NCBI GenBank assembly: GCA_031365045.1
Contig: JANLXK010000506.1
Location: 1-36,041, forward strand
Length of the DNA: 36,041 nucleotides
Direction of reading: 5' to 3'
Origin: Gemmatimonadota bacterium
Lineage (GTDB): Bacteria > Gemmatimonadota > Gemmatimonadetes > Gemmatimonadales > GWC2-71-9
Part shown: positions 3 to 33,944 of the stretch, piece after piece
Layout of the letters: every line of letters starts with the position of its first letter
Position numbering within the stretch: position 1 is the stretch's first letter
Translations under genes and position numbers: made by a program
The notes under the pieces: generated by a model
The model's database searches: none
What the model saw: the letters and a program-made list of their open reading frames with translations, nothing else
What the model was told of the DNA's origin: nothing

Positions 3-23
3 CACGACTCACGACCCACGACC
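3..23. repeat. Tandem heptamer array (CACGACT CACGACC CACGACC), probably one arm of a hairpin cut by the window edge
   Basis: Read directly. Three contiguous 7-nt units end at the TAG stop (23-25, minus strand) of the kinase gene. Any partner arm would lie left of the window. Confidence 0.7.
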
Positions 24-1054
24 TACTTCGAGAACGCCGCCACCCAGTCCGTCCCCGTCACCTTGTCGAGCGCGCCGGCGAATTCCTTCATCGACTGCCA
101 CCGGTTGTCGGGCTCGGAGGCGAGCGACCTGTCGACGATCATCTCCAGCACTTCCGGCAGCTGCGGCTTGAACTCGCGTAGCTTCCTCGGCTGACCGCGG
201 AGGCGTGCGATCATCAGCTCCTGGGCGTTCCGCCCCTGGAACGGGAGCTGGCCGGTGAGCAGCTCGAAGGCGAGGATACCGAGGGCGTAGACGTCGCTCC
301 GGCCATCGAGCGGCTTGCCGCGGATCTGCTCGGGGCTCATGAATTCCGGCGTGCCGAGGACGATACCGGTGGCGGTGAGCTTCTGGACCTCGGGCCCGGC
401 CACCCGCGACTTGGCAAGTCCGAAATCCATCACCACGGCCCGGACCGGCACCAGACCGGTCGGATCGGGGACCATCATCACGTTCTCGGGCTTGAGGTCG
501 CGATGGATGATCTCGAGCGAATGCGCGTGATCCAGCCCGAGGCACATCTGCACCAGGAGCGGCACCGCCTCCTGCTGCGGCGTGGGTCCGGTGCGGTGCT
601 CACGATCGCTCAGCAGCTCGCCGCTCAGGTATGGCATCACCAGGTAGAGCAGCCCGTCCGGGGTCGAGCCGATCGCGTGGATGTTGCAGACGTACGGGCT
701 CGAGAGCCGCATCGCCAGCGACGCCTCGCGCTTGAGCCGCTCGGCCGACTGCGGGTCGCCCGAGAGCTTGGGGCTCAGCACCTTCACTGCCACCTTGGTC
801 CCGCTCTGCTGCTTGTCGGCGGCCAGGTAGACGTAGCTCATCCCCCCCTCGCCGAGCTTCTTCTCGACGACGAAGCGCCCTTCGAGGGTGGTGCCCGCCA
901 GCGCGGCCGCCCGCTCCCCGAACGCCGGCGGCGCCACGATCGGCTCGAGCTTCGGCGGATCGGCCATCTCGACCAGGGTCGTCCCGTCGTGGGCACAAAA
1001 GCGGTCGGCCACGGTATACGTACGTCCGCACTTGGGACACCGGCGGATAGGCAT
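23..1054 (-). CDS. Hanks-type Ser/Thr protein kinase with N-terminal zinc ribbon
   Basis: 343-aa ORF. CPKCG...FCAHDG zinc ribbon at the N-terminus, then the kinase motifs GEGGMSYVY / VAVKVL, HRDLKPEN, DFGLAK and GTPEFMSPE. Its ATG shares one base with the stop of the upstream gene (TGATG at 1052-1056). Confidence 0.9.
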   Translation of the reverse strand: MPIRRCPKCGRTYTVADRFCAHDGTTLVEMADPPKLEPIVAPPAFGERAAALAGTTLEGRFVVEKKLGEGGMSYVYLAADKQQSGTKVAVKVLSPKLSGDPQSAERLKREASLAMRLSSPYVCNIHAIGSTPDGLLYLVMPYLSGELLSDREHRTGPTPQQEAVPLLVQMCLGLDHAHSLEIIHRDLKPENVMMVPDPTGLVPVRAVVMDFGLAKSRVAGPEVQKLTATGIVLGTPEFMSPEQIRGKPLDGRSDVYALGILAFELLTGQLPFQGRNAQELMIARLRGQPRKLREFKPQLPEVLEMIVDRSLASEPDNRWQSMKEFAGALDKVTGTDWVAAFSK

Positions 1055-2487
1055 CAGTCGCGGTACCGGTTGCGGCCGTCACGCTTGGCCTGGTACAGAC
1101 GTTCGTCCGCGTGGGCGAGGAAGGCCTCGGGACGCTCGGTGGCCGCCTCGGGATAGGTGGCCACCCCGACACTGATCGTGACGTGGACGGAGGCGTCAGG
1201 CTCGCCGAAGTCGTGTTCGGCCACCCGCTTCAAGATACGCTCTGCGAAATTTCTCGCACCCAGGAGGTTGGTCTCGGGCAGGACGACCACGAATTCCTCC
1301 CCGCCGTACCGGGCCACCAGGTCCACGCCGCGCAGCTCTCGCCGCAGGATCGTGGCCAGCTGGCAAAGGACCTGGTCGCCCATCCGGTGACCGAAGGTGT
1401 CGTTCACCTTCTTGAACTCGTCGATGTCGAGCATCAGCACGGCGAGCTTGCTGCTGTACCGTCCCGCCCGCTCCAGCTCGGCGCCGAGGCGCTCGTCCAG
1501 CGCCCGGCGGTTGAACGTGCCGGTCAGGGGGTCGGTCTCGGCCAGGGCGCGGTACTGTGCGCTGTCGAGCCGGGCGGCCTGGAGATCGTAGGCCTTTTCG
1601 ATCGCGGGGACCGCCGAACGGAGCACCTCTTCTACGAACTGGGCGTCGCGCGCGTTGAGCGCCGACTCGTCGGCGGCCGACCGGAGGAAGAGGAGGCCGG
1701 GGGCGTGCCCACGCGGGCGGAAGGCGGCGGCCACGACCGCCCGGGTCGGGACGAACTGCCCGGTGGTCGCCCAGCGCCCACGGATCTGCTCAAAGATAGG
1801 GTCGGTGGAGACATCCGCCACAAAGACCGGCCGCTCGCTCTCGAGGGCCGCCTCGAGCTCCGGATAGTTCCGGAGGTCCACCCGGAGCTCGGAGAGGAGC
1901 GGGTTGTCGGCCGAGGCCATCACGGTCGCGGTACCGGTGGTGGCATCGACTGTGAGCACGGAGCACTGCCCGATCTTGAGTGCCCGGGCCACTCGGCGCG
2001 CCAGGATCTGGAACACCTCGTCGGGGCGGAGGCTCGCGGTCAGCTCCTGGACGATGGCGACCAGCTCGTGCCGGGTGCGGACGAGGGTCCGCGCCGTGTC
2101 GAGCTCGTGCCGCACCCGGAGGTGCGCCTTGATGCGGGCCAGGAGCTCGCGCACCCGGAACGGCTTGGCGATGAAGTCGCTCGCGCCGAGTCCGAGGGCG
2201 CGCACGGTGGCCTCCTCGGGCGGCATCGAGGAGATCATCAGCACCGGGAGGTCGCGTTTGCGGGGGTCGCTCTTGATCCGCTCGAGGAGCTGGAGCCCGT
2301 CCACCCGCGGCATCATGATGTCGAGGAGGAGCAGGTCTGGCTGTTCTACCTCGAGCCGTTCGATCAGCTCTTCCGCGTCGGGGACGGTAATGACCTCATA
2401 GCCATTCTCACGCAGGATCCACGACAGGGTCCGCGCGAGGGCGGCGTCGTCATCCGCCACGAGGATCCGCTGGCCGTTGGCACTCAT
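1054..2487 (-). CDS. Response regulator receiver - GAF-like - GGDEF diguanylate cyclase
   Basis: 477 aa. The N-terminal receiver domain has ILVADDD, LLLLDIMMP and AKPF. The C-terminus has RYGGEEF with an RGVD (RxxD I-site) 5 residues upstream. TGATG overlap with the upstream gene at 2485-2489. Confidence 0.9.
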   Translation of the reverse strand: MSANGQRILVADDDAALARTLSWILRENGYEVITVPDAEELIERLEVEQPDLLLLDIMMPRVDGLQLLERIKSDPRKRDLPVLMISSMPPEEATVRALGLGASDFIAKPFRVRELLARIKAHLRVRHELDTARTLVRTRHELVAIVQELTASLRPDEVFQILARRVARALKIGQCSVLTVDATTGTATVMASADNPLLSELRVDLRNYPELEAALESERPVFVADVSTDPIFEQIRGRWATTGQFVPTRAVVAAAFRPRGHAPGLLFLRSAADESALNARDAQFVEEVLRSAVPAIEKAYDLQAARLDSAQYRALAETDPLTGTFNRRALDERLGAELERAGRYSSKLAVLMLDIDEFKKVNDTFGHRMGDQVLCQLATILRRELRGVDLVARYGGEEFVVVLPETNLLGARNFAERILKRVAEHDFGEPDASVHVTISVGVATYPEAATERPEAFLAHADERLYQAKRDGRNRYRD

Positions 2488-33009: not shown

Positions 33010-33762
33010 ATGGAACGCATCTACTCCCCCACCGTCACCCTCCTCGCCAACCCCGCCTTCCATGAGCCGGCGCATCTGCCCGTGCACTGGAAGGATCCGG
33101 GCACCGACGGCGAGAAGCTCGCGGAGTTCGCCGGCCGGCTCTGCTACATGAGCCAGCACAACCCGGCCGAGCGCTCGACGGCCGAATATTTGACGAACAT
33201 CCTGAAGCAGGGGCACGGGTCGGTGTTCGAGCACTCGACCTACGTCCTCCTGCTCGAGGGGATCAGCCGGAGCTGCACCCACGAGCTGGTGCGGCACCGG
33301 GCGGGGTTCGGGTACAGCCAGCTCTCCCAGCGCTACGTGGATGAGAGCCGGGCGGCCTACGTCGTCCCGCCGGCGATCATCGGGGACCAGGCGCTGGAGG
33401 GGGCGTGGGCGGCCCAGATGGAATCGGCGCACGCCACCTACGTCGCCCAAGTCGAGGGACTGATGCAGAGATATGCATCGGTCGAGAACAAGATCCATCG
33501 GCGCAAGATGTCCCGGGAGGCGGCGCGGAGCGTCCTGCCCAACGCCACCGAGACCAAGATCGTGGTGAGCGCGAACCTCCGCGCCTGGCGCACGATGCTC
33601 GAACTCCGCCTCGGCGAGGGCGCAGAACTCGAGATCCGCCGCGTAGCAGTGGCGATCCTCGGCGTGTTGAAGGGCCAGGCGCCCGCACTCTTCGCCGATT
33701 TCGAGCTGTACGATGCACCGGACGGGACGAAAGCGGGGAAGGCCGGGTTCCACAAAGTGTGA
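33010..33762 (+). CDS. thyX: Flavin-dependent thymidylate synthase
   Basis: 250 aa. HGSVFEH, then RHRAGFGYSQLSQRY (ThyX signature region) and NLRAWRTMLELR. Confidence 0.9.
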   Translation: MERIYSPTVTLLANPAFHEPAHLPVHWKDPGTDGEKLAEFAGRLCYMSQHNPAERSTAEYLTNILKQGHGSVFEHSTYVLLLEGISRSCTHELVRHRAGFGYSQLSQRYVDESRAAYVVPPAIIGDQALEGAWAAQMESAHATYVAQVEGLMQRYASVENKIHRRKMSREAARSVLPNATETKIVVSANLRAWRTMLELRLGEGAELEIRRVAVAILGVLKGQAPALFADFELYDAPDGTKAGKAGFHKV

Positions 33763-33763
33763 G

Positions 33764-33944
33764 CGGTGACCGGTGACCAGTGACCGGGCCCCGATCGACC
33801 TTGATCGATGTCATCCGACCCTCCGACTCGACGCTGAGTGGAGGGTCGGACTCTTTTTTCCTCGAACGTCGATGAAATGGGGATCCGAAGGACACCGAAA
33901 TGCTCATTTCATCGCCCGGTCACCGGTCACTGGTCACTGGTCAC
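33764..33944. repeat. 181-nt composite element: heptamer arms (GTGACCR)n / (YGGTCAC)n enclosing two hairpins
   Basis: Left arm 33764-33788, right arm 33915-33944 (22 of 25 positions Watson-Crick). The interior holds the terminator at 33815-33860 and a 10-bp hairpin CGATGAAATG (33870-33879) / CATTTCATCG (33905-33914) that abuts the right arm. Confidence 0.9.
33815..33860 (+). terminator. Rho-independent terminator of thyX
   Basis: CCGACCCTCC (33815-33824) pairs with GGAGGGTCGG (33840-33849). The stem extends by ACTC/GAGT. It is followed by ACTCTTTTTTCC (T6). Confidence 0.85.

What the first reader, a model, noticed from the sequence alone, without database searches (positions are those of the whole stretch)
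3..33944. Thirteen gene-boundary arrays of locus-specific tandem heptanucleotides, ten arranged as inverted pairs
Thirteen sites in 36 kb carry 3-5 contiguous copies of a 7-nt unit (twice an 8-nt unit).

The sites and units are:
- CACGACY (3-23)
- AAACCCC/GGGGTTT (6085-6188)
- AGTGGGCC/TGGCCGAC (6913-7008)
- CACCACG (8340-8371)
- GTGACCG (9841-9868)
- GGRGTGA/TCACTYC (10071-10117)
- GAAGGTAG/CTACCYTC (12937-12996)
- GGTCRTT/AAYGACC (22306-22435 and 28695-28790)
- GGGAGTN/ANCTCCC (23065-23170)
- GAGARAC/GTCTCTC (29674-29723)
- GNGTGTT/AACACNC (32931-33002)
- GTGACCR/YGGTCAC (33764-33944)

In ten of these sites an array of the reverse-complement unit lies 7-130 nt away, giving 10-25 bp stems. 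The arms start or end within a few nt of stop codons, or they cover start codons.

The architecture is conserved while the sequence is not. That pattern is unlike REP or MITE families, which share sequence. It resembles the STRR (short tandemly repeated repetitive) heptamers of heterocystous cyanobacteria, whose function is still unclear. I am not aware of a description of such paired heptamer hairpins in a high-G+C non-cyanobacterial genome.
Basis: partly seen in the sequence, partly recalled or inferred. Interest (0 to 1): 0.78.

Follow-up and report, generated by a model that had tools for sequence, protein, structure and literature searches.

The report
Paired heptamer-repeat hairpins between genes
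This stretch of an uncultured Gemmatimonadales chromosome is peppered with short runs of 7-base repeats that sit at gene ends as complementary pairs able to fold into long hairpins. The feature is real and runs through the lineage, and it is of the same kind already described in Xanthomonas and cyanobacteria, whose origin and role are still unsettled.

Summary
My scanner finds 10 period-7 and 2 period-8 arrays in 36 kb, against 0.09 and 0.01 in shuffles. Ten sites are inverted pairs folding into 13-30 bp stems.

The window is Gemmatimonadales. Eighty Gemmatimonadota gyrA loci (1.19 Mb) hold 70 + 34 such arrays; 0.84 Mb of unrelated metagenome DNA holds 1 + 1.

- **Polarity:** the 5' arm is G-rich in 44 of 56 paired arrays and C-rich in 1.
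- **Position:** the 5' arm starts -20 to +34 nt from the upstream stop codon and often contains it. The 3' arm abuts or overlaps the next start codon.
- **Turnover:** at orthologous spacers in close relatives the unit differs (GTGACCG or GTGAGCG; GTGTTGN, GTGCGTS or GTGCGAA), yet each genome's 3' arm complements its own 5' arm.
- **Units:** they are not arbitrary. They share a degenerate consensus GGTGAGC, with TGA at its core.

This is the heptanucleotide simple-sequence-repeat (STRR-like) class. It was already reported with inverted pairs at gene ends in high-G+C Xanthomonas, so the novelty claim fails.

Best reading: slippage arrays seeded at stop codons, with arms kept complementary by template switching and/or hairpin selection. 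The hairpins would act as post-stop mRNA structures. That function is inferred, not shown.

The parts
1..23 (-). On the minus strand, the 5' arm GGTCGTG x3.3 that starts at the TAG stop of the Ser/Thr kinase gene (23-1054, minus strand). Its partner arm lies beyond the left end of the window.
   Evidence: TRF. Sequence. The relative L001 shows the full pair at 6632-6676 and 6798-6827.
6085..6101 (+). AAACCCC/AAAACCCC arm (about 2 units) of an inverted pair in the region upstream of gyrA. This is the only pair with the C-rich arm first.
   Evidence: I3. The pair is absent from L001.
6172..6188 (+). GGGGTTT/GGGGGTTT partner arm (about 2 units).
6913..6944 (+). AGTGGGCC x4, a perfect 8-mer array, upstream of the ECF sigma factor gene.
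   Evidence: The same unit occurs at L164 1753-1782.
6993..7008 (+). TGGCCGAC x2, an imperfect reverse-complement partner (7 of 8 positions per unit).
   Evidence: weak fold, z = -1.9.
7741..7769 (+). CGAGGCGC x3.6 8-mer array in the spacer between the sigma factor gene and the next ORF. No partner.
8339..8371 (+). CGCACCA x4.7, a C-rich array of the 3'-arm type. It lies inside the HEAT-repeat gene, where it encodes the linker APRTTHPAPRT just after the signal peptide. No partner.
9833..9869 (+). GTGACCG x4, preceded by degenerate units, located 23 nt after the HEAT gene stop. No partner. It sits at the junction with the remnant of a second HEAT gene.
10056..10097 (+). 5' arm GGTAAGG GTAGAGC CTGAGGG GTGAGGA GTGAGGG GTGAGGA. 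The first unit holds the TAA stop of the remnant ORF.
10102..10122 (+). 3' arm TCTCACT TCTCACT CCTCCCT. The hairpin has a loop of about 5 nt.
   Evidence: -35.3 kcal/mol, z = -4.0.
12919..12956 (+). 5' arm of GAAGGTAG-type 8-mers, after the DUF5916 gene stop (12903).
   Evidence: I2, I6.
12979..13014 (+). 3' arm of CTACCYTC-type 8-mers, ending 22 nt before ATG 13036.
   Evidence: z = -6.3.
22302..22342 (+). 5' arm of GGTNNNN / GGTCRTT units, starting at the TGA stop of a 71-aa ORF.
   Evidence: I10.
22408..22437 (+). 3' arm GACCAAT/GACCAAC x3.6, covering the RNase H start codon ATG 22430.
23059..23097 (+). 5' arm GGAGTAG GGAGTGG GAAGTTG GGAGTGG GGAGTCA. The first unit holds the TAG stop of the RNase H gene.
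   Evidence: in-phase identity 6 of 7.
23146..23172 (+). 3' arm of ANCTCCC-type units, holding the stop (CTA on the + strand) of the convergent gene 23167-24036. The arms enclose a perfect GC-rich inner hairpin at 23106-23135.
   Evidence: z = -6.5; I1.
28695..28731 (+). 5' arm GTCRTTG x5.3, starting 7 nt after the TAG stop at 28686-88.
   Evidence: I15.
28768..28790 (+). 3' arm CCAATGA x3.3, covering ATG 28771 and the first 6 codons of the 3-hydroxyacyl-CoA dehydrogenase gene. The Shine-Dalgarno-like GGGGAGGGG lies in the loop.
   Evidence: z = -4.9.
29674..29705 (+). 5' arm GAGARAC x4.6, starting 10 nt after the TGA stop at 29662-64 and ending at ATG 29705. A homologous GAGAKAN array sits at the same gene junction in L164 (6668-6705).
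29710..29724 (+). Short 3' arm TCTCGTCTCTCG, inside the first codons of the next ORF.
   Evidence: z = -3.8.
32280..32306 (+). CGCACYT x3.9 inside the FAD-linked oxidase gene, in frame, encoding RTSHLALRT. No partner.
32931..32955 (+). Degenerate 5' arm GCGTGTT GGGTTTT GGGTGGT, starting 7 nt after the TAA stop at 32922-24.
   Evidence: The arm is regular in the relative L163.
32970..33002 (+). 3' arm NCAACAC x4, ending 8 nt before the thyX start codon ATG 33010.
33759..33789 (+). 5' arm GTGAGCG GTGACCG GTGACCA GTGACCG. The first unit holds the thyX TGA stop (33760-62).
   Evidence: in-phase identity 5 of 7.
33914..33946 (+). 3' arm YGGTCAC x4, 124 nt downstream. The arms enclose a canonical U-tract terminator (about 33813-33860) and two other hairpins.
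   Evidence: -111 kcal/mol, z = -10.4; I4.

Best explanation
**What it is (shown).** These are heptanucleotide, occasionally octanucleotide, simple-sequence-repeat arrays of the STRR / long-SSR kind. They are a lineage-wide trait of Gemmatimonadales.

**Anatomy (shown).**
- A G-rich arm begins at the stop codon of the upstream gene and often contains it.
- A reverse-complement C-rich arm lies 5-265 nt downstream. It ends at, or overlaps, the next start codon or the N-terminal linker codons of the next gene.
- Units vary from site to site and between close relatives around a degenerate consensus GGTGAGC, with TGA at its core.
- Within one genome, the two arms of a site stay complementary.

**Origin (inferred).**
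- Replication slippage amplifies a 7-nt seed. That seed is frequently the stop codon with two bases on each side, which would explain both the consensus and the local flavour of each array.
- Slippage homogenises the units within an arm.
- Intramolecular template switching between the arms, selection for pairing, or both, copy changes across to the other arm.
- Stop triplets are tolerated only in the 5' arm, because the 3' arm is often translated. This would give the G-rich-first polarity.

**Function (inferred, least certain).** In the mRNA the pair forms a long stem that starts where the terminating ribosome sits. It would act as a post-stop structure that insulates or gates translation of the next cistron, as proposed for ribosome termination structures. 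At operon ends it would act as a 3' stabiliser or a terminator without a U tract.
For: **Reality and lineage specificity.** Arrays are enriched over shuffles. Array counts are 70 + 34 in 1.19 Mb of Gemmatimonadota DNA, against 1 + 1 in 0.84 Mb of control DNA. The closest clade is equally dense (L001, L163, L164).

**Pairing.** 56 of 120 arrays have an inverted partner within 250 nt; 22 have a direct one. Stems contain 13-30 Watson-Crick pairs, and about 94% of all pairs are Watson-Crick.

**Polarity.** The 5' arm has G>C in 44 arrays, G=C in 11 and G<C in 1.

**Stop codon adjacency.**
- The 5' arm starts -20 to +34 nt from the upstream ORF end.
- The stop-codon heptamer matches the in-phase unit at 5 or more of 7 positions in 9 of 23 cases. 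For the other six phases the figure is 1 of 138.
- In L035, L036 and L167 the upstream ORF ends inside the array.
- 13 of 36 5' arms carry stops in all three frames, against 0.1% of random 24-mers. 29 of 36 3' arms carry none.

**Start codon adjacency.** See W 28771, 22430 and 33010, and L001 7595 and 8902.

**Unit consensus.**

**Turnover with co-varying arms.** This is seen at orthologous spacers. In L167 the variant unit GTAAGCG has its complement CGCTTAC at the mirrored position across about 210 nt. By contrast, the adjacent non-coding leader is 90% conserved.

**Published precedent.**
- Template switching creates and maintains hairpins (PMC8794818).
- Stable structures immediately after stop codons insulate re-initiation (PMC7518266).
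- Xanthomonas heptamer arrays show the same placement and pairing (PMC4692102).
Against: - No transcript or ribosome data exist for this organism, so function is inferred from position only.
- Stems are not clearly more stable on the sense strand: 15 of 23 are, and G-U pairs number 35 sense against 27 antisense, which is not significant. Selection at the RNA level is therefore not demonstrated, and complementarity could be purely a DNA-level process.
- At thyX the arms flank a canonical U-tract terminator. The 3' arm would then be transcribed only on read-through.
- About 60% of arrays near a stop are not in phase with it. Four arrays in the window are unpaired.
- Two pairs of near-identical strains (99.65-99.7% identity) show no copy-number change. 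Slippage is therefore not fast at 3-5 units.
- Why 7 nt, or 8 nt in some lineages, is favoured remains unexplained.
Confidence: 0.55

Rival explanations
1. The arrays are a neutral mutational by-product. A lineage-specific tendency to 7-8-nt slippage plus template switching makes arrays and inverted copies. These persist only where they do no harm: in spacers, C-terminal tails and N-terminal linkers. The hairpins have no function.
For: - There is no strand bias in stem stability or in G-U pairs.
- Turnover is rapid, with gain and loss between close relatives. The AAACCCC pair is absent from L001, and the 5' arm is lost in L161.
- Many related lineages have none at the same site.
- The arms flank, rather than form, the real thyX terminator.
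- Arrays sit at rearrangement junctions: the 3HCDH gene insertion and the HEAT gene deletion.
Against: - The tight start of the 5' arm at stop codons and the end of the 3' arm at start codons.
- The near-absolute G-rich-first polarity.
- Complementarity maintained across up to 265 nt, with a mirrored compensatory variant.
- Persistence of a paired array at the same spacer through several unit replacements.

Template switching and constraints from the flanking coding sequence could, however, produce several of these features without any function.
Confidence: 0.3
2. The pairs are dispersed mobile elements, of the REP/REPIN or MITE type. They would be small non-autonomous elements with repeat-built terminal inverted repeats, moved by a transposase.
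For: - The same units recur at unrelated loci. An identical 26-nt array occurs at W 32280 and at L001 8910.
- In Longimicrobium-like genomes an identical 8-mer pair recurs at 7 or more loci.
- The location is extragenic and the elements form hairpins, as REP elements do.
Against: - In the window almost every site has a different unit.
- The spacers between arms are unrelated and contain functional host sequence, namely Shine-Dalgarno sites, start codons, signal-peptide codons and a terminator.
- The first units are built from the host gene's own last codons and stop codon.
- At orthologous sites the unit changes in place.
- No target-site duplications were seen.
- With a restricted unit vocabulary and several arrays per 10 kb, chance recurrence of a unit is expected. 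My rough estimate is about 0.5 shared arrays between W and L001.
Confidence: 0.07
3. The arrays are recognition sites for a repeat-binding protein or form a non-B DNA structure. Candidates are a translational or transcriptional regulator binding tandem heptamers, as proposed for TAACTGA repeats, or G-quadruplexes, as proposed for GGGAATC repeats.
For: - The units share a degenerate consensus NGTGAGN.
- The arrays lie next to translation signals.
- A few arrays have four or more G3 tracts (6913-6944, 23059-23097).
Against: - Most units lack G tracts (GTGACCG, GGTCRTT, GAGARAC, GGTCGTG).
- Only 3 of the 7 unit positions are conserved, and units change freely at a given site while arm complementarity is kept. 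That points to pairing rather than to recognition of a sequence.
Confidence: 0.06
4. The arrays are assembly or sequencing artefacts.
For: Short tandem repeats can be mis-assembled from short reads.
Against: Arrays occur at orthologous positions in independent assemblies from different projects and technologies: JGI, ENA, Logan and GTDB genomes, including megabase contigs. Two pairs of independently assembled, near-identical strains give identical array lengths.
Confidence: 0.01

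Closest known systems
GGGAATC-type heptameric simple-sequence repeats of Xanthomonas campestris and X. axonopodis (Rehm et al. 2015, PMC4692102)
   Same: - High-G+C, non-cyanobacterial genome.
- 7-nt units, typically about 4 copies.
- About 90% of arrays are intergenic.
- The G-rich strand lies just downstream of the upstream ORF on its coding strand.
- About 40% of arrays sit in convergent inverted pairs able to form stem-loops.
- Arrays lie between the same genes in related species but vary in length and sequence.
- Function unknown.
   Different: - Xanthomonas has essentially one unit family (GGGANTN) that forms G-quadruplexes. Here there are dozens of units, mostly without G tracts, around the consensus GGTGAGC.
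- Density here is roughly ten times higher: about 3-5 arrays per 10 kb against about 0.4.
- 8-mers also occur.
- Inclusion of the stop codon and co-variation of the arms were not reported for Xanthomonas.
STRR (short tandemly repeated repetitive) heptamers of heterocystous cyanobacteria. Units CCCCAGT, TTGGTCA and CAACAGT are quoted from my own knowledge of Mazel et al. 1990. GGGGAYT arrays of Nostoc are from PMC4692102.
   Same: - Dispersed intergenic tandem heptamers of unknown function.
- The window's GGTCATT unit is a rotation of TTGGTCA.
- The L035 variant AACAGTC is a rotation of CAACAGT.
- GGGGAGT and GGGGAAC units resemble GGGGAYT.
   Different: - Different phylum and G+C content.
- Cyanobacterial arrays are often much longer and use a few fixed units.
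- I could not check from the papers held here whether cyanobacterial arrays are paired at gene boundaries.
Long simple sequence repeats with 5-11-nt units (Mrazek et al. 2007, as summarised in PMC4679880 and PMC4692102)
   Same: - Heptanucleotide units are the most abundant class.
- The distribution across bacterial phyla is sporadic.
- Polymerase slippage is the proposed origin.
   Different: That survey is a general statistical class. I found no mention of Gemmatimonadota, of inverted pairing or of the stop-codon phase relation in the papers I could read.
REP / BIME / REPIN extragenic palindromes
   Same: - Hairpin-forming extragenic elements at the 3' ends of genes and between cistrons.
- They often occur as inverted doublets.
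- Their known roles are in mRNA stabilisation and termination (from established knowledge).
   Different: - REP elements share one sequence across the genome and are mobilised by RAYT transposases.
- Here the sequence differs from site to site and is built from tandem 7-mers that grow in place.
- Only the 8-mer family in L063, L071 and L073 looks REP-like.
Ribosome termination structure (Chemla et al. 2020, PMC7518266)
   Same: A stable mRNA structure immediately downstream of the stop codon, proposed to insulate or control re-initiation in operons.
   Different: It is defined by a folding-energy signal, not by repeats. Whether these arrays act in this way is untested.
TAACTGA heptamer direct repeats of marine Beggiatoaceae, some cyanobacteria and some Bacteroidetes (MacGregor 2015, PMC4679880)
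   Same: Intergenic tandem heptamers, 2-6 copies, next to translation signals.
   Different: There is a single fixed unit, present almost only as direct repeats (169 direct sets, 1 inverted), and placed just upstream of start codons rather than after stop codons.

Membership tests
Heptanucleotide long simple-sequence repeats / STRR-like arrays | Head-to-tail copies of a 7-nt unit, more numerous than chance allows. | tested here: met
   10 period-7 arrays in the window against 0.09 in shuffles. TRF results.
Heptanucleotide long simple-sequence repeats / STRR-like arrays | Many dispersed arrays per genome, mostly outside coding sequence. | tested here: met
   Of 16 array arms that meet the at-least-3-copy criterion, 14 lie in spacers or at gene edges, while about 12% of the window is non-coding. 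The clade-wide density is 3-6 arrays per 10 kb. No whole genome was scanned.
Heptanucleotide long simple-sequence repeats / STRR-like arrays | Cyanobacterial STRR unit sequences and host (heterocystous cyanobacteria). | tested here: not met
   The host is Gemmatimonadales. Only GGTCATT matches an STRR unit, and that unit list comes from memory. Most units differ.
Xanthomonas-type G-rich heptamer repeats | Intergenic arrays close to the end of the upstream ORF, with the G-rich strand on the coding strand. | tested here: met
   compared with PMC4692102.
Xanthomonas-type G-rich heptamer repeats | A large fraction of arrays in convergent inverted pairs. | tested here: met
   56 of 120 arrays are paired; 10 sites in the window are paired.
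Xanthomonas-type G-rich heptamer repeats | GGGANTN consensus with four or more G3 tracts, giving G-quadruplex potential. | tested here: not met
   The consensus is GGTGAGC. Only 6913-6944 and 23059-23097 have four or more G3 tracts.
REP / REPIN | One conserved palindromic sequence repeated across the genome. | tested here: not met
   47 distinct units among 84 arrays. The unit changes in place at orthologous sites. The exception is the 8-mer family in L063, L071 and L073.
REP / REPIN | An associated RAYT (IS200/IS605-like) transposase. | not testable with these tools
   No whole genome was available, and none is encoded in the window.
MITE | Terminal inverted repeats around a shared internal sequence, with target-site duplications and multiple copies. 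| tested here: not met
   The internal sequences are host Shine-Dalgarno sites, start codons, signal-peptide codons or a terminator. The two GGTCRTT pairs have unrelated spacers. No duplications were seen.
Intrinsic (Rho-independent) terminator | A GC-rich stem followed directly by a U tract. | tested here: not met
   Terminator-like sites are not enriched: 9 found against 6.2 expected, and 7 against 7.4. There is no T run after the 3' arms. At thyX the true U-tract terminator lies inside the loop.
Ribosome termination structure | A stable mRNA structure beginning at the edge of the footprint of the terminating ribosome. | tested here: met
   5' arms start -20 to +34 nt from the stop codon. 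Eight of the ten paired regions in the window fold with z = -2.4 to -10.4 on the + strand.
Ribosome termination structure | An effect on re-initiation or translation of the downstream cistron. | not testable with these tools
   This needs reporter assays or ribosome profiling.

The most novel reading that the evidence does not exclude
The heptamer and octamer hairpins would be products of a dedicated, lineage-variable molecular process, not of generic slippage. One candidate is a repair or replication enzyme whose active-site footprint sets the 7- or 8-nt period and the G-rich-first polarity. That process would be shared with the unexplained STRR arrays of cyanobacteria and the Xanthomonas repeats. 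The resulting stop-codon-anchored stems would form a general, fast-evolving layer of intercistronic control: translation gating or RNase III processing.
Probability: 0.12. Interest if true: 0.75.

Novelty: new member of a known kind. Interest (0 to 1): 0.45.

Why it matters
Tandem heptamers have been known in cyanobacteria since 1990 and in Xanthomonas since 2007-2015, with no accepted origin or function.

Gemmatimonadales carry them at very high density, with many unit types, and hundreds of related genomes are available. Unit turnover, arm co-variation and the link to stop codons can therefore be read directly from comparisons.

If stop-codon seeding and arm-to-arm copying hold genome-wide, they would explain three things:
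- where such arrays come from;
- why they sit at gene ends;
- why their sequence is not conserved.

Annotators should also know that these arrays overlap the real C-terminal tails and N-terminal linkers of proteins.

Tried and rejected
- **Exact-protein look-ups.** Look-ups for three window proteins found nothing.
- **Metagenome scan.** I reused those loci as a negative control.
- **RNA annotation.** There are no tRNA genes and no Rfam matches at gathering score anywhere in the window. A permissive scan of the 33930-34140 leader also found none.
- **Classic terminators.** Their number does not exceed chance.
- **RNA-level selection.** I compared sense and antisense stem energy and G-U counts. 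The result was inconclusive.
- **Fail-safe stop modules.** I considered arrays as stop modules covering all three frames. This fits 13 of 36 5' arms, but most units lack stops. A published survey also reports no evidence of selection for additional stops in bacteria (PMC6764699; title and abstract only).
- **G-quadruplexes.** Rejected as a general explanation, because most units have no G tracts.
- **Telomere-like addition at double-strand breaks.** This would explain the polarity. I rejected it as a general explanation because the spacers between arms hold functional host sequence.
- **Mobile insertion of the in-gene array at 32280.** Rejected. It is not an insertion relative to homologues with solved structures. 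The protein segment is conserved in relatives that also show 7-nt periodicity at that point.
- **Literature search on STRR unit strings.** It returned only unrelated primer matches.
- **Literature on Gemmatimonadota.** I found no paper describing these arrays in that phylum. The library does not cover subscription journals.

Full report

Yes. Tandem Repeats Finder lists period-7 arrays at nearly all the stated coordinates, and period-8 arrays at 6913-6944, 6993-7008, 12923-12956 and 12979-13014. The sequences read as described.

A scanner of my own required at least 3 copies and at most 15% mismatch. It finds 10 period-7 and 2 period-8 arrays in the 36,041 bases. The means of 100 dinucleotide-preserving shuffles are 0.09 and 0.01. 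Period 4 (7 found against 12.7) and period 5 (1 against 1.65) are not enriched, and periods 9-12 are absent.

The inverted pairs are recovered by the repeat finder. On the + strand eight of the ten regions fold with z = -2.4 to -10.4 relative to shuffles. The 6908-7012 region gives z = -1.9.

- The 6085-6188 site has only about two irregular copies per arm.
- Several partner arms have about two degenerate units.
- Four arrays (7741, 8339, 9840, 32280) have no partner.

**2. Where does the window come from, and what surrounds the arrays?**

G+C content is 66-71%. The genes are ordinary chromosomal genes:
- gyrA
- a PLP-dependent enzyme
- a response-regulator diguanylate cyclase
- a Ser/Thr kinase
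- an ECF sigma factor
- HEAT-repeat and DUF5916 proteins
- RNase H
- a thiolase
- 3-hydroxyacyl-CoA dehydrogenase (3HCDH)
- an FAD-linked oxidase
- ThyX

GyrA is 92% identical to that of a Gemmatimonadales genome, and the best 80 hits are almost all Gemmatimonadota. There are no tRNA genes and no Rfam families in the window. Canonical sigma-70 promoters and U-tract terminators are not enriched.

**3. Is it specific to this lineage?**

| Data set | Size | Period-7 arrays | Period-8 arrays |
|---|---|---|---|
| Window | 36 kb | 10 | 2 |
| 80 Gemmatimonadota gyrA loci | 1.19 Mb | 70 | 34 |
| 80 unrelated metagenome loci (mean G+C 0.61) | 0.84 Mb | 1 | 1 |

In the gyrA loci only 6 arrays have period 9 and 1 has period 10-12.

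The distribution is patchy. The closest relative L001 and some other lineages (L016, L024, L035, L036, L047) are rich, and many have none. Some lineages (L021, L063, L071, L073) favour 8-mers. Close relatives fetched through ThyX (L163, L164) are as dense as the window.

The arrays are not assembly artefacts. They recur at orthologous positions in independent assemblies, and two pairs of independently assembled strains have identical array lengths.

**4. Anatomy**

- **Pairing.** Among 120 arrays (window plus the 80 gyrA loci), 56 have a two-unit reverse-complement match with at most 2 mismatches within 250 nt. Only 22 have a direct match.
- **Polarity.** The pairs are strongly polar. The 5' arm unit has G>C in 44 arrays, G=C in 11 and G<C in 1. 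An inverted repeat reads the same on both strands, so this holds for whichever strand is transcribed.
- **5' arm and stop codon.** Where an upstream ORF could be called, the 5' arm begins -20 to +34 nt from its end. In many cases the first unit is the stop codon with its neighbours:
  - GGAGTAG|GGAGTGG|GAAGTTG... after the RNase H gene
  - GGTAAGG|GTAGAGC|CTGAGGG|GTGAGGA... at 10056
  - GTGAGCG|GTGACCG... after thyX
  - AGTAGGT|CGTGGGT... after the kinase gene in L001
- **Phase test.** The stop-codon heptamer matches the in-phase extension of the array at 5 or more of 7 positions in 9 of 23 cases. For the other six phases the figure is 1 of 138.
- **ORFs ending inside arrays.** In L035 and L036 the kinase ORF ends inside the array. 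In L167 the oxidase gains an array-encoded C-terminal tail.
- **Stop triplets.** 13 of 36 5' arms have stop triplets in all three frames within 24 nt, against 0.1% of random 24-mers. 29 of 36 3' arms have none.
- **3' arm and start codon.** The 3' arm ends just before, or overlaps, the next start codon: W 28771, 22430, 29705 and 33010, and L001 7595. The ThyX start at 33010 is fixed by 250-aa homologues. Alternatively the 3' arm lies in the linker after a signal peptide, as at W 8339-8371 and L001 6798-6827.
- **Convergent genes.** At the convergent pair around 23065-23170, both stop codons lie in the arms.

**5. Are the units really specific to each locus?**

Only in part. The 84 period-7 arrays give 47 distinct units. 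When the units are aligned in strand and phase, they share a degenerate consensus G-G-T-G-A-G-C:
- G at position 2 in 37 of 47
- G at position 4 in 43 of 47
- A at position 5 in 37 of 47

Information content is 4.97 bits, against 3.98 +/- 0.13 for random heptamers treated the same way. The core is TGA, or a one-step derivative of it.

Units also recur at unrelated loci in related genomes:
- GTGACCR
- GGTCRTT
- CGCACYT
- AGTGGGCC

With a restricted vocabulary and several arrays per 10 kb, I estimate that such recurrences are expected by chance at roughly the observed rate. They do not require mobility.

**6. Comparative test**

After the conserved gyrA-PALP-GGDEF-kinase operon, about 10 of 40 lineages carry a tandem-unit hairpin, each with a different unit. 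The units seen are:
- GGTCGTG
- ACGGCTA
- AACAGTG
- TAAGAGG
- TGAGAAG
- TAGGCGA
- GGGGAAC
- GGTGAGA

The other lineages have plain hairpins or none. The AAACCCC pair upstream of gyrA is absent from L001.

Around thyX, relatives with 84-96% identical ThyX show the following:

| Spacer | Genomes | 5' arm unit | 3' arm unit |
|---|---|---|---|
| Upstream of thyX | W, L163 | GNGTGTT | NCAACAC |
| Upstream of thyX | L162 | TGGTGCG | CACGCAC |
| Upstream of thyX | L169, L170 | GTGCGTS | SACGCAC |
| Upstream of thyX | L164, L165 | GTGCGAA | CTTCGCA-type |
| Downstream of thyX | W, L163 | GTGACCG | CGGTCAC |
| Downstream of thyX | L164, L167 | GTGAGCG | CGCTCAC |
| Downstream of thyX | L162 | GTRAGAG | CTCTCAC |

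- In L161 the 5' arm of the upstream spacer has been lost.
- In 11 of 12 arm pairs the 3' unit is the reverse complement of that genome's own 5' unit at 6-7 of 7 positions.
- In L167 the single variant unit GTAAGCG has its complement CGCTTAC at the mirrored position, about 210 nt away.
- The non-coding leader right next to these arrays is 90% conserved in the same genomes. The arrays therefore turn over much faster than neighbouring functional non-coding DNA.
- Near-identical strains (99.65% and 99.7% identity) show no copy-number change. Three of 15 substitutions between L167 and L168 fall in one 71-nt array spacer.

**7. How it most likely works**

Shown: these are microsatellite-type arrays with complementary partner arms, anchored at stop and start codons. 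They evolve in concert within a site and diverge between genomes.

Inferred origin:
- Slippage amplifies a 7-nt seed, often the stop codon with its flanks. This accounts for the TGA-centred consensus, for the local flavour of each array, and for ORFs that end inside arrays.
- The partner arm is created, and kept complementary, by template switching between the arms. That mechanism has been documented for hairpins (PMC8794818). Selection for pairing may also contribute.
- The polarity follows if stop triplets are tolerated only in the arm that follows a gene, and not in the arm that runs into the next gene.

Inferred function, less certain: the stem begins where a terminating ribosome sits and ends at the next ribosome-binding region. 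This is the geometry of the ribosome termination structure proposed to insulate re-initiation (PMC7518266), and of classical coupling hairpins. At operon ends the stem could protect 3' ends, as REP elements do.

Evidence against a function at the RNA level:
- Stems are not significantly more stable on the sense strand. 15 of 23 are, and G-U pairs number 35 sense against 27 antisense.
- At thyX the arms lie outside the real U-tract terminator.

A neutral by-product model therefore remains a serious rival.

**8. Comparison with what is known**

The closest described case is Xanthomonas (PMC4692102), which has:
- a high-G+C genome;
- about 185 heptamer arrays per genome, about 90% of them intergenic;
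- arrays on average 28 nt from the upstream ORF;
- the G-rich strand on the coding strand downstream of ORFs;
- 70-75 cases in convergent inverted pairs;
- length and sequence variation between species at the same gene pairs.

Heptanucleotide repeats were already noted as the most abundant long simple-sequence-repeat class in most of the genomes surveyed (Mrazek 2007, via PMC4679880).

The differences here are:
- the phylum;
- a density roughly tenfold higher;
- many unit types around a TGA-centred consensus, rather than one G-quadruplex-forming unit;
- the use of 8-mers in some lineages.

This analysis also documents the stop-codon phase relation and the co-variation of the arms.

The arrays do not meet the definitions of REP/REPIN elements, MITEs or intrinsic terminators (see the membership table). 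One 8-mer pair in Longimicrobium-like genomes has become a REP-like dispersed family.

**9. Verdict**

The feature is real, statistically overwhelming and lineage-wide. It is a new member, in a new phylum and unusually dense and diverse, of a known but unexplained class. Interest is moderate. It is not categorically new, but it offers a good comparative system for the old question of where tandem heptamers come from and what they do.

Noticed in passing
window 33946-34128: A non-coding leader of about 190 nt. It has a promoter-like AT-rich stretch and a terminator-like hairpin (GGCTCGCCTCCGCCAGGCGA followed by T6). It is 90% conserved in L161, L162 and L164, while the adjacent array region is not conserved. 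It lies upstream of an operon encoding two ATP-grasp enzymes, an acetyltransferase and a radical-SAM aminomutase. There is no Rfam match even at E <= 1. It is a candidate new leader, riboswitch or small RNA.
   Followed up: partly
window 28689-29724: The 3-hydroxyacyl-CoA dehydrogenase gene (28771-29664) is absent from the relatives L163 and L164, where the upstream gene is directly followed by the next ORF (4-nt overlap or a 12-nt spacer). That next ORF shows no BLAST similarity to the window's ORF at 29705, so the downstream flank is not confirmed as orthologous. In the window the gene is bracketed by heptamer pairs on both sides, so it is a gene insertion, or a loss in the relatives, at an array site.
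   Followed up: partly
window 9818-10058: The 67-aa ORF at 9855-10058 matches only the C-terminal end of a second HEAT-repeat gene that is full-length in relatives. It appears to be a deletion remnant, with the GTGACCG array at the junction.
   Followed up: partly
window 30186-31239: The squalene/phytoene synthase gene appears to be split between two overlapping frames (30186-30740 and 30517-31239). The L164 homologue is a single 343-aa ORF. This is a frameshift, a pseudogene or an assembly error.
   Followed up: no
window 32280-32306; L163 4168-4188; L164 9243-9265: The FAD-linked oxidase gene has a 7-nt-periodic coding segment at the same internal position in three relatives, with different units. 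The encoded peptide (ATRTSxLxLRTG) is conserved, and the segment is not an insertion relative to homologues with solved structures.
   Followed up: partly
window 18384-19448 (repeats at 18841-19012): An ORF rich in Lys and Ala, with AKKA-type repeats of 12-54 nt period. It resembles histone H1 or an AlgP-like protein and has no Pfam match.
   Followed up: no
L063 4270-4328, 12598-12658 and 17544-17601; L071 7465-7589; L073 1318-1368 and 12550-12609: In Longimicrobium-like genomes, an almost identical 8-mer pair recurs at many loci: ACACAGAGACACAGAGGCACAGAG, a loop, then CTCTGTGCCTCTGTGTCTCTGTGT. It is a REP-like dispersed family built from tandem octamers.
   Followed up: no
window 31767-31843: A 25-nt inverted repeat, 92% complementary, with a 27-nt spacer, inside the coding region of the FAD-linked oxidase gene.
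   Followed up: no
window 22388-22437 and 28771-28790: The two GGTCRTT/AAYGACC pairs are read in the same frame at the start of two unrelated genes. If RNase H starts at ATG 22388, both genes have similar N-terminal peptides (TNDQRP and TNDERP); with the ATG 22430 start used elsewhere in this report, the RNase H stretch is untranslated.
   Followed up: no
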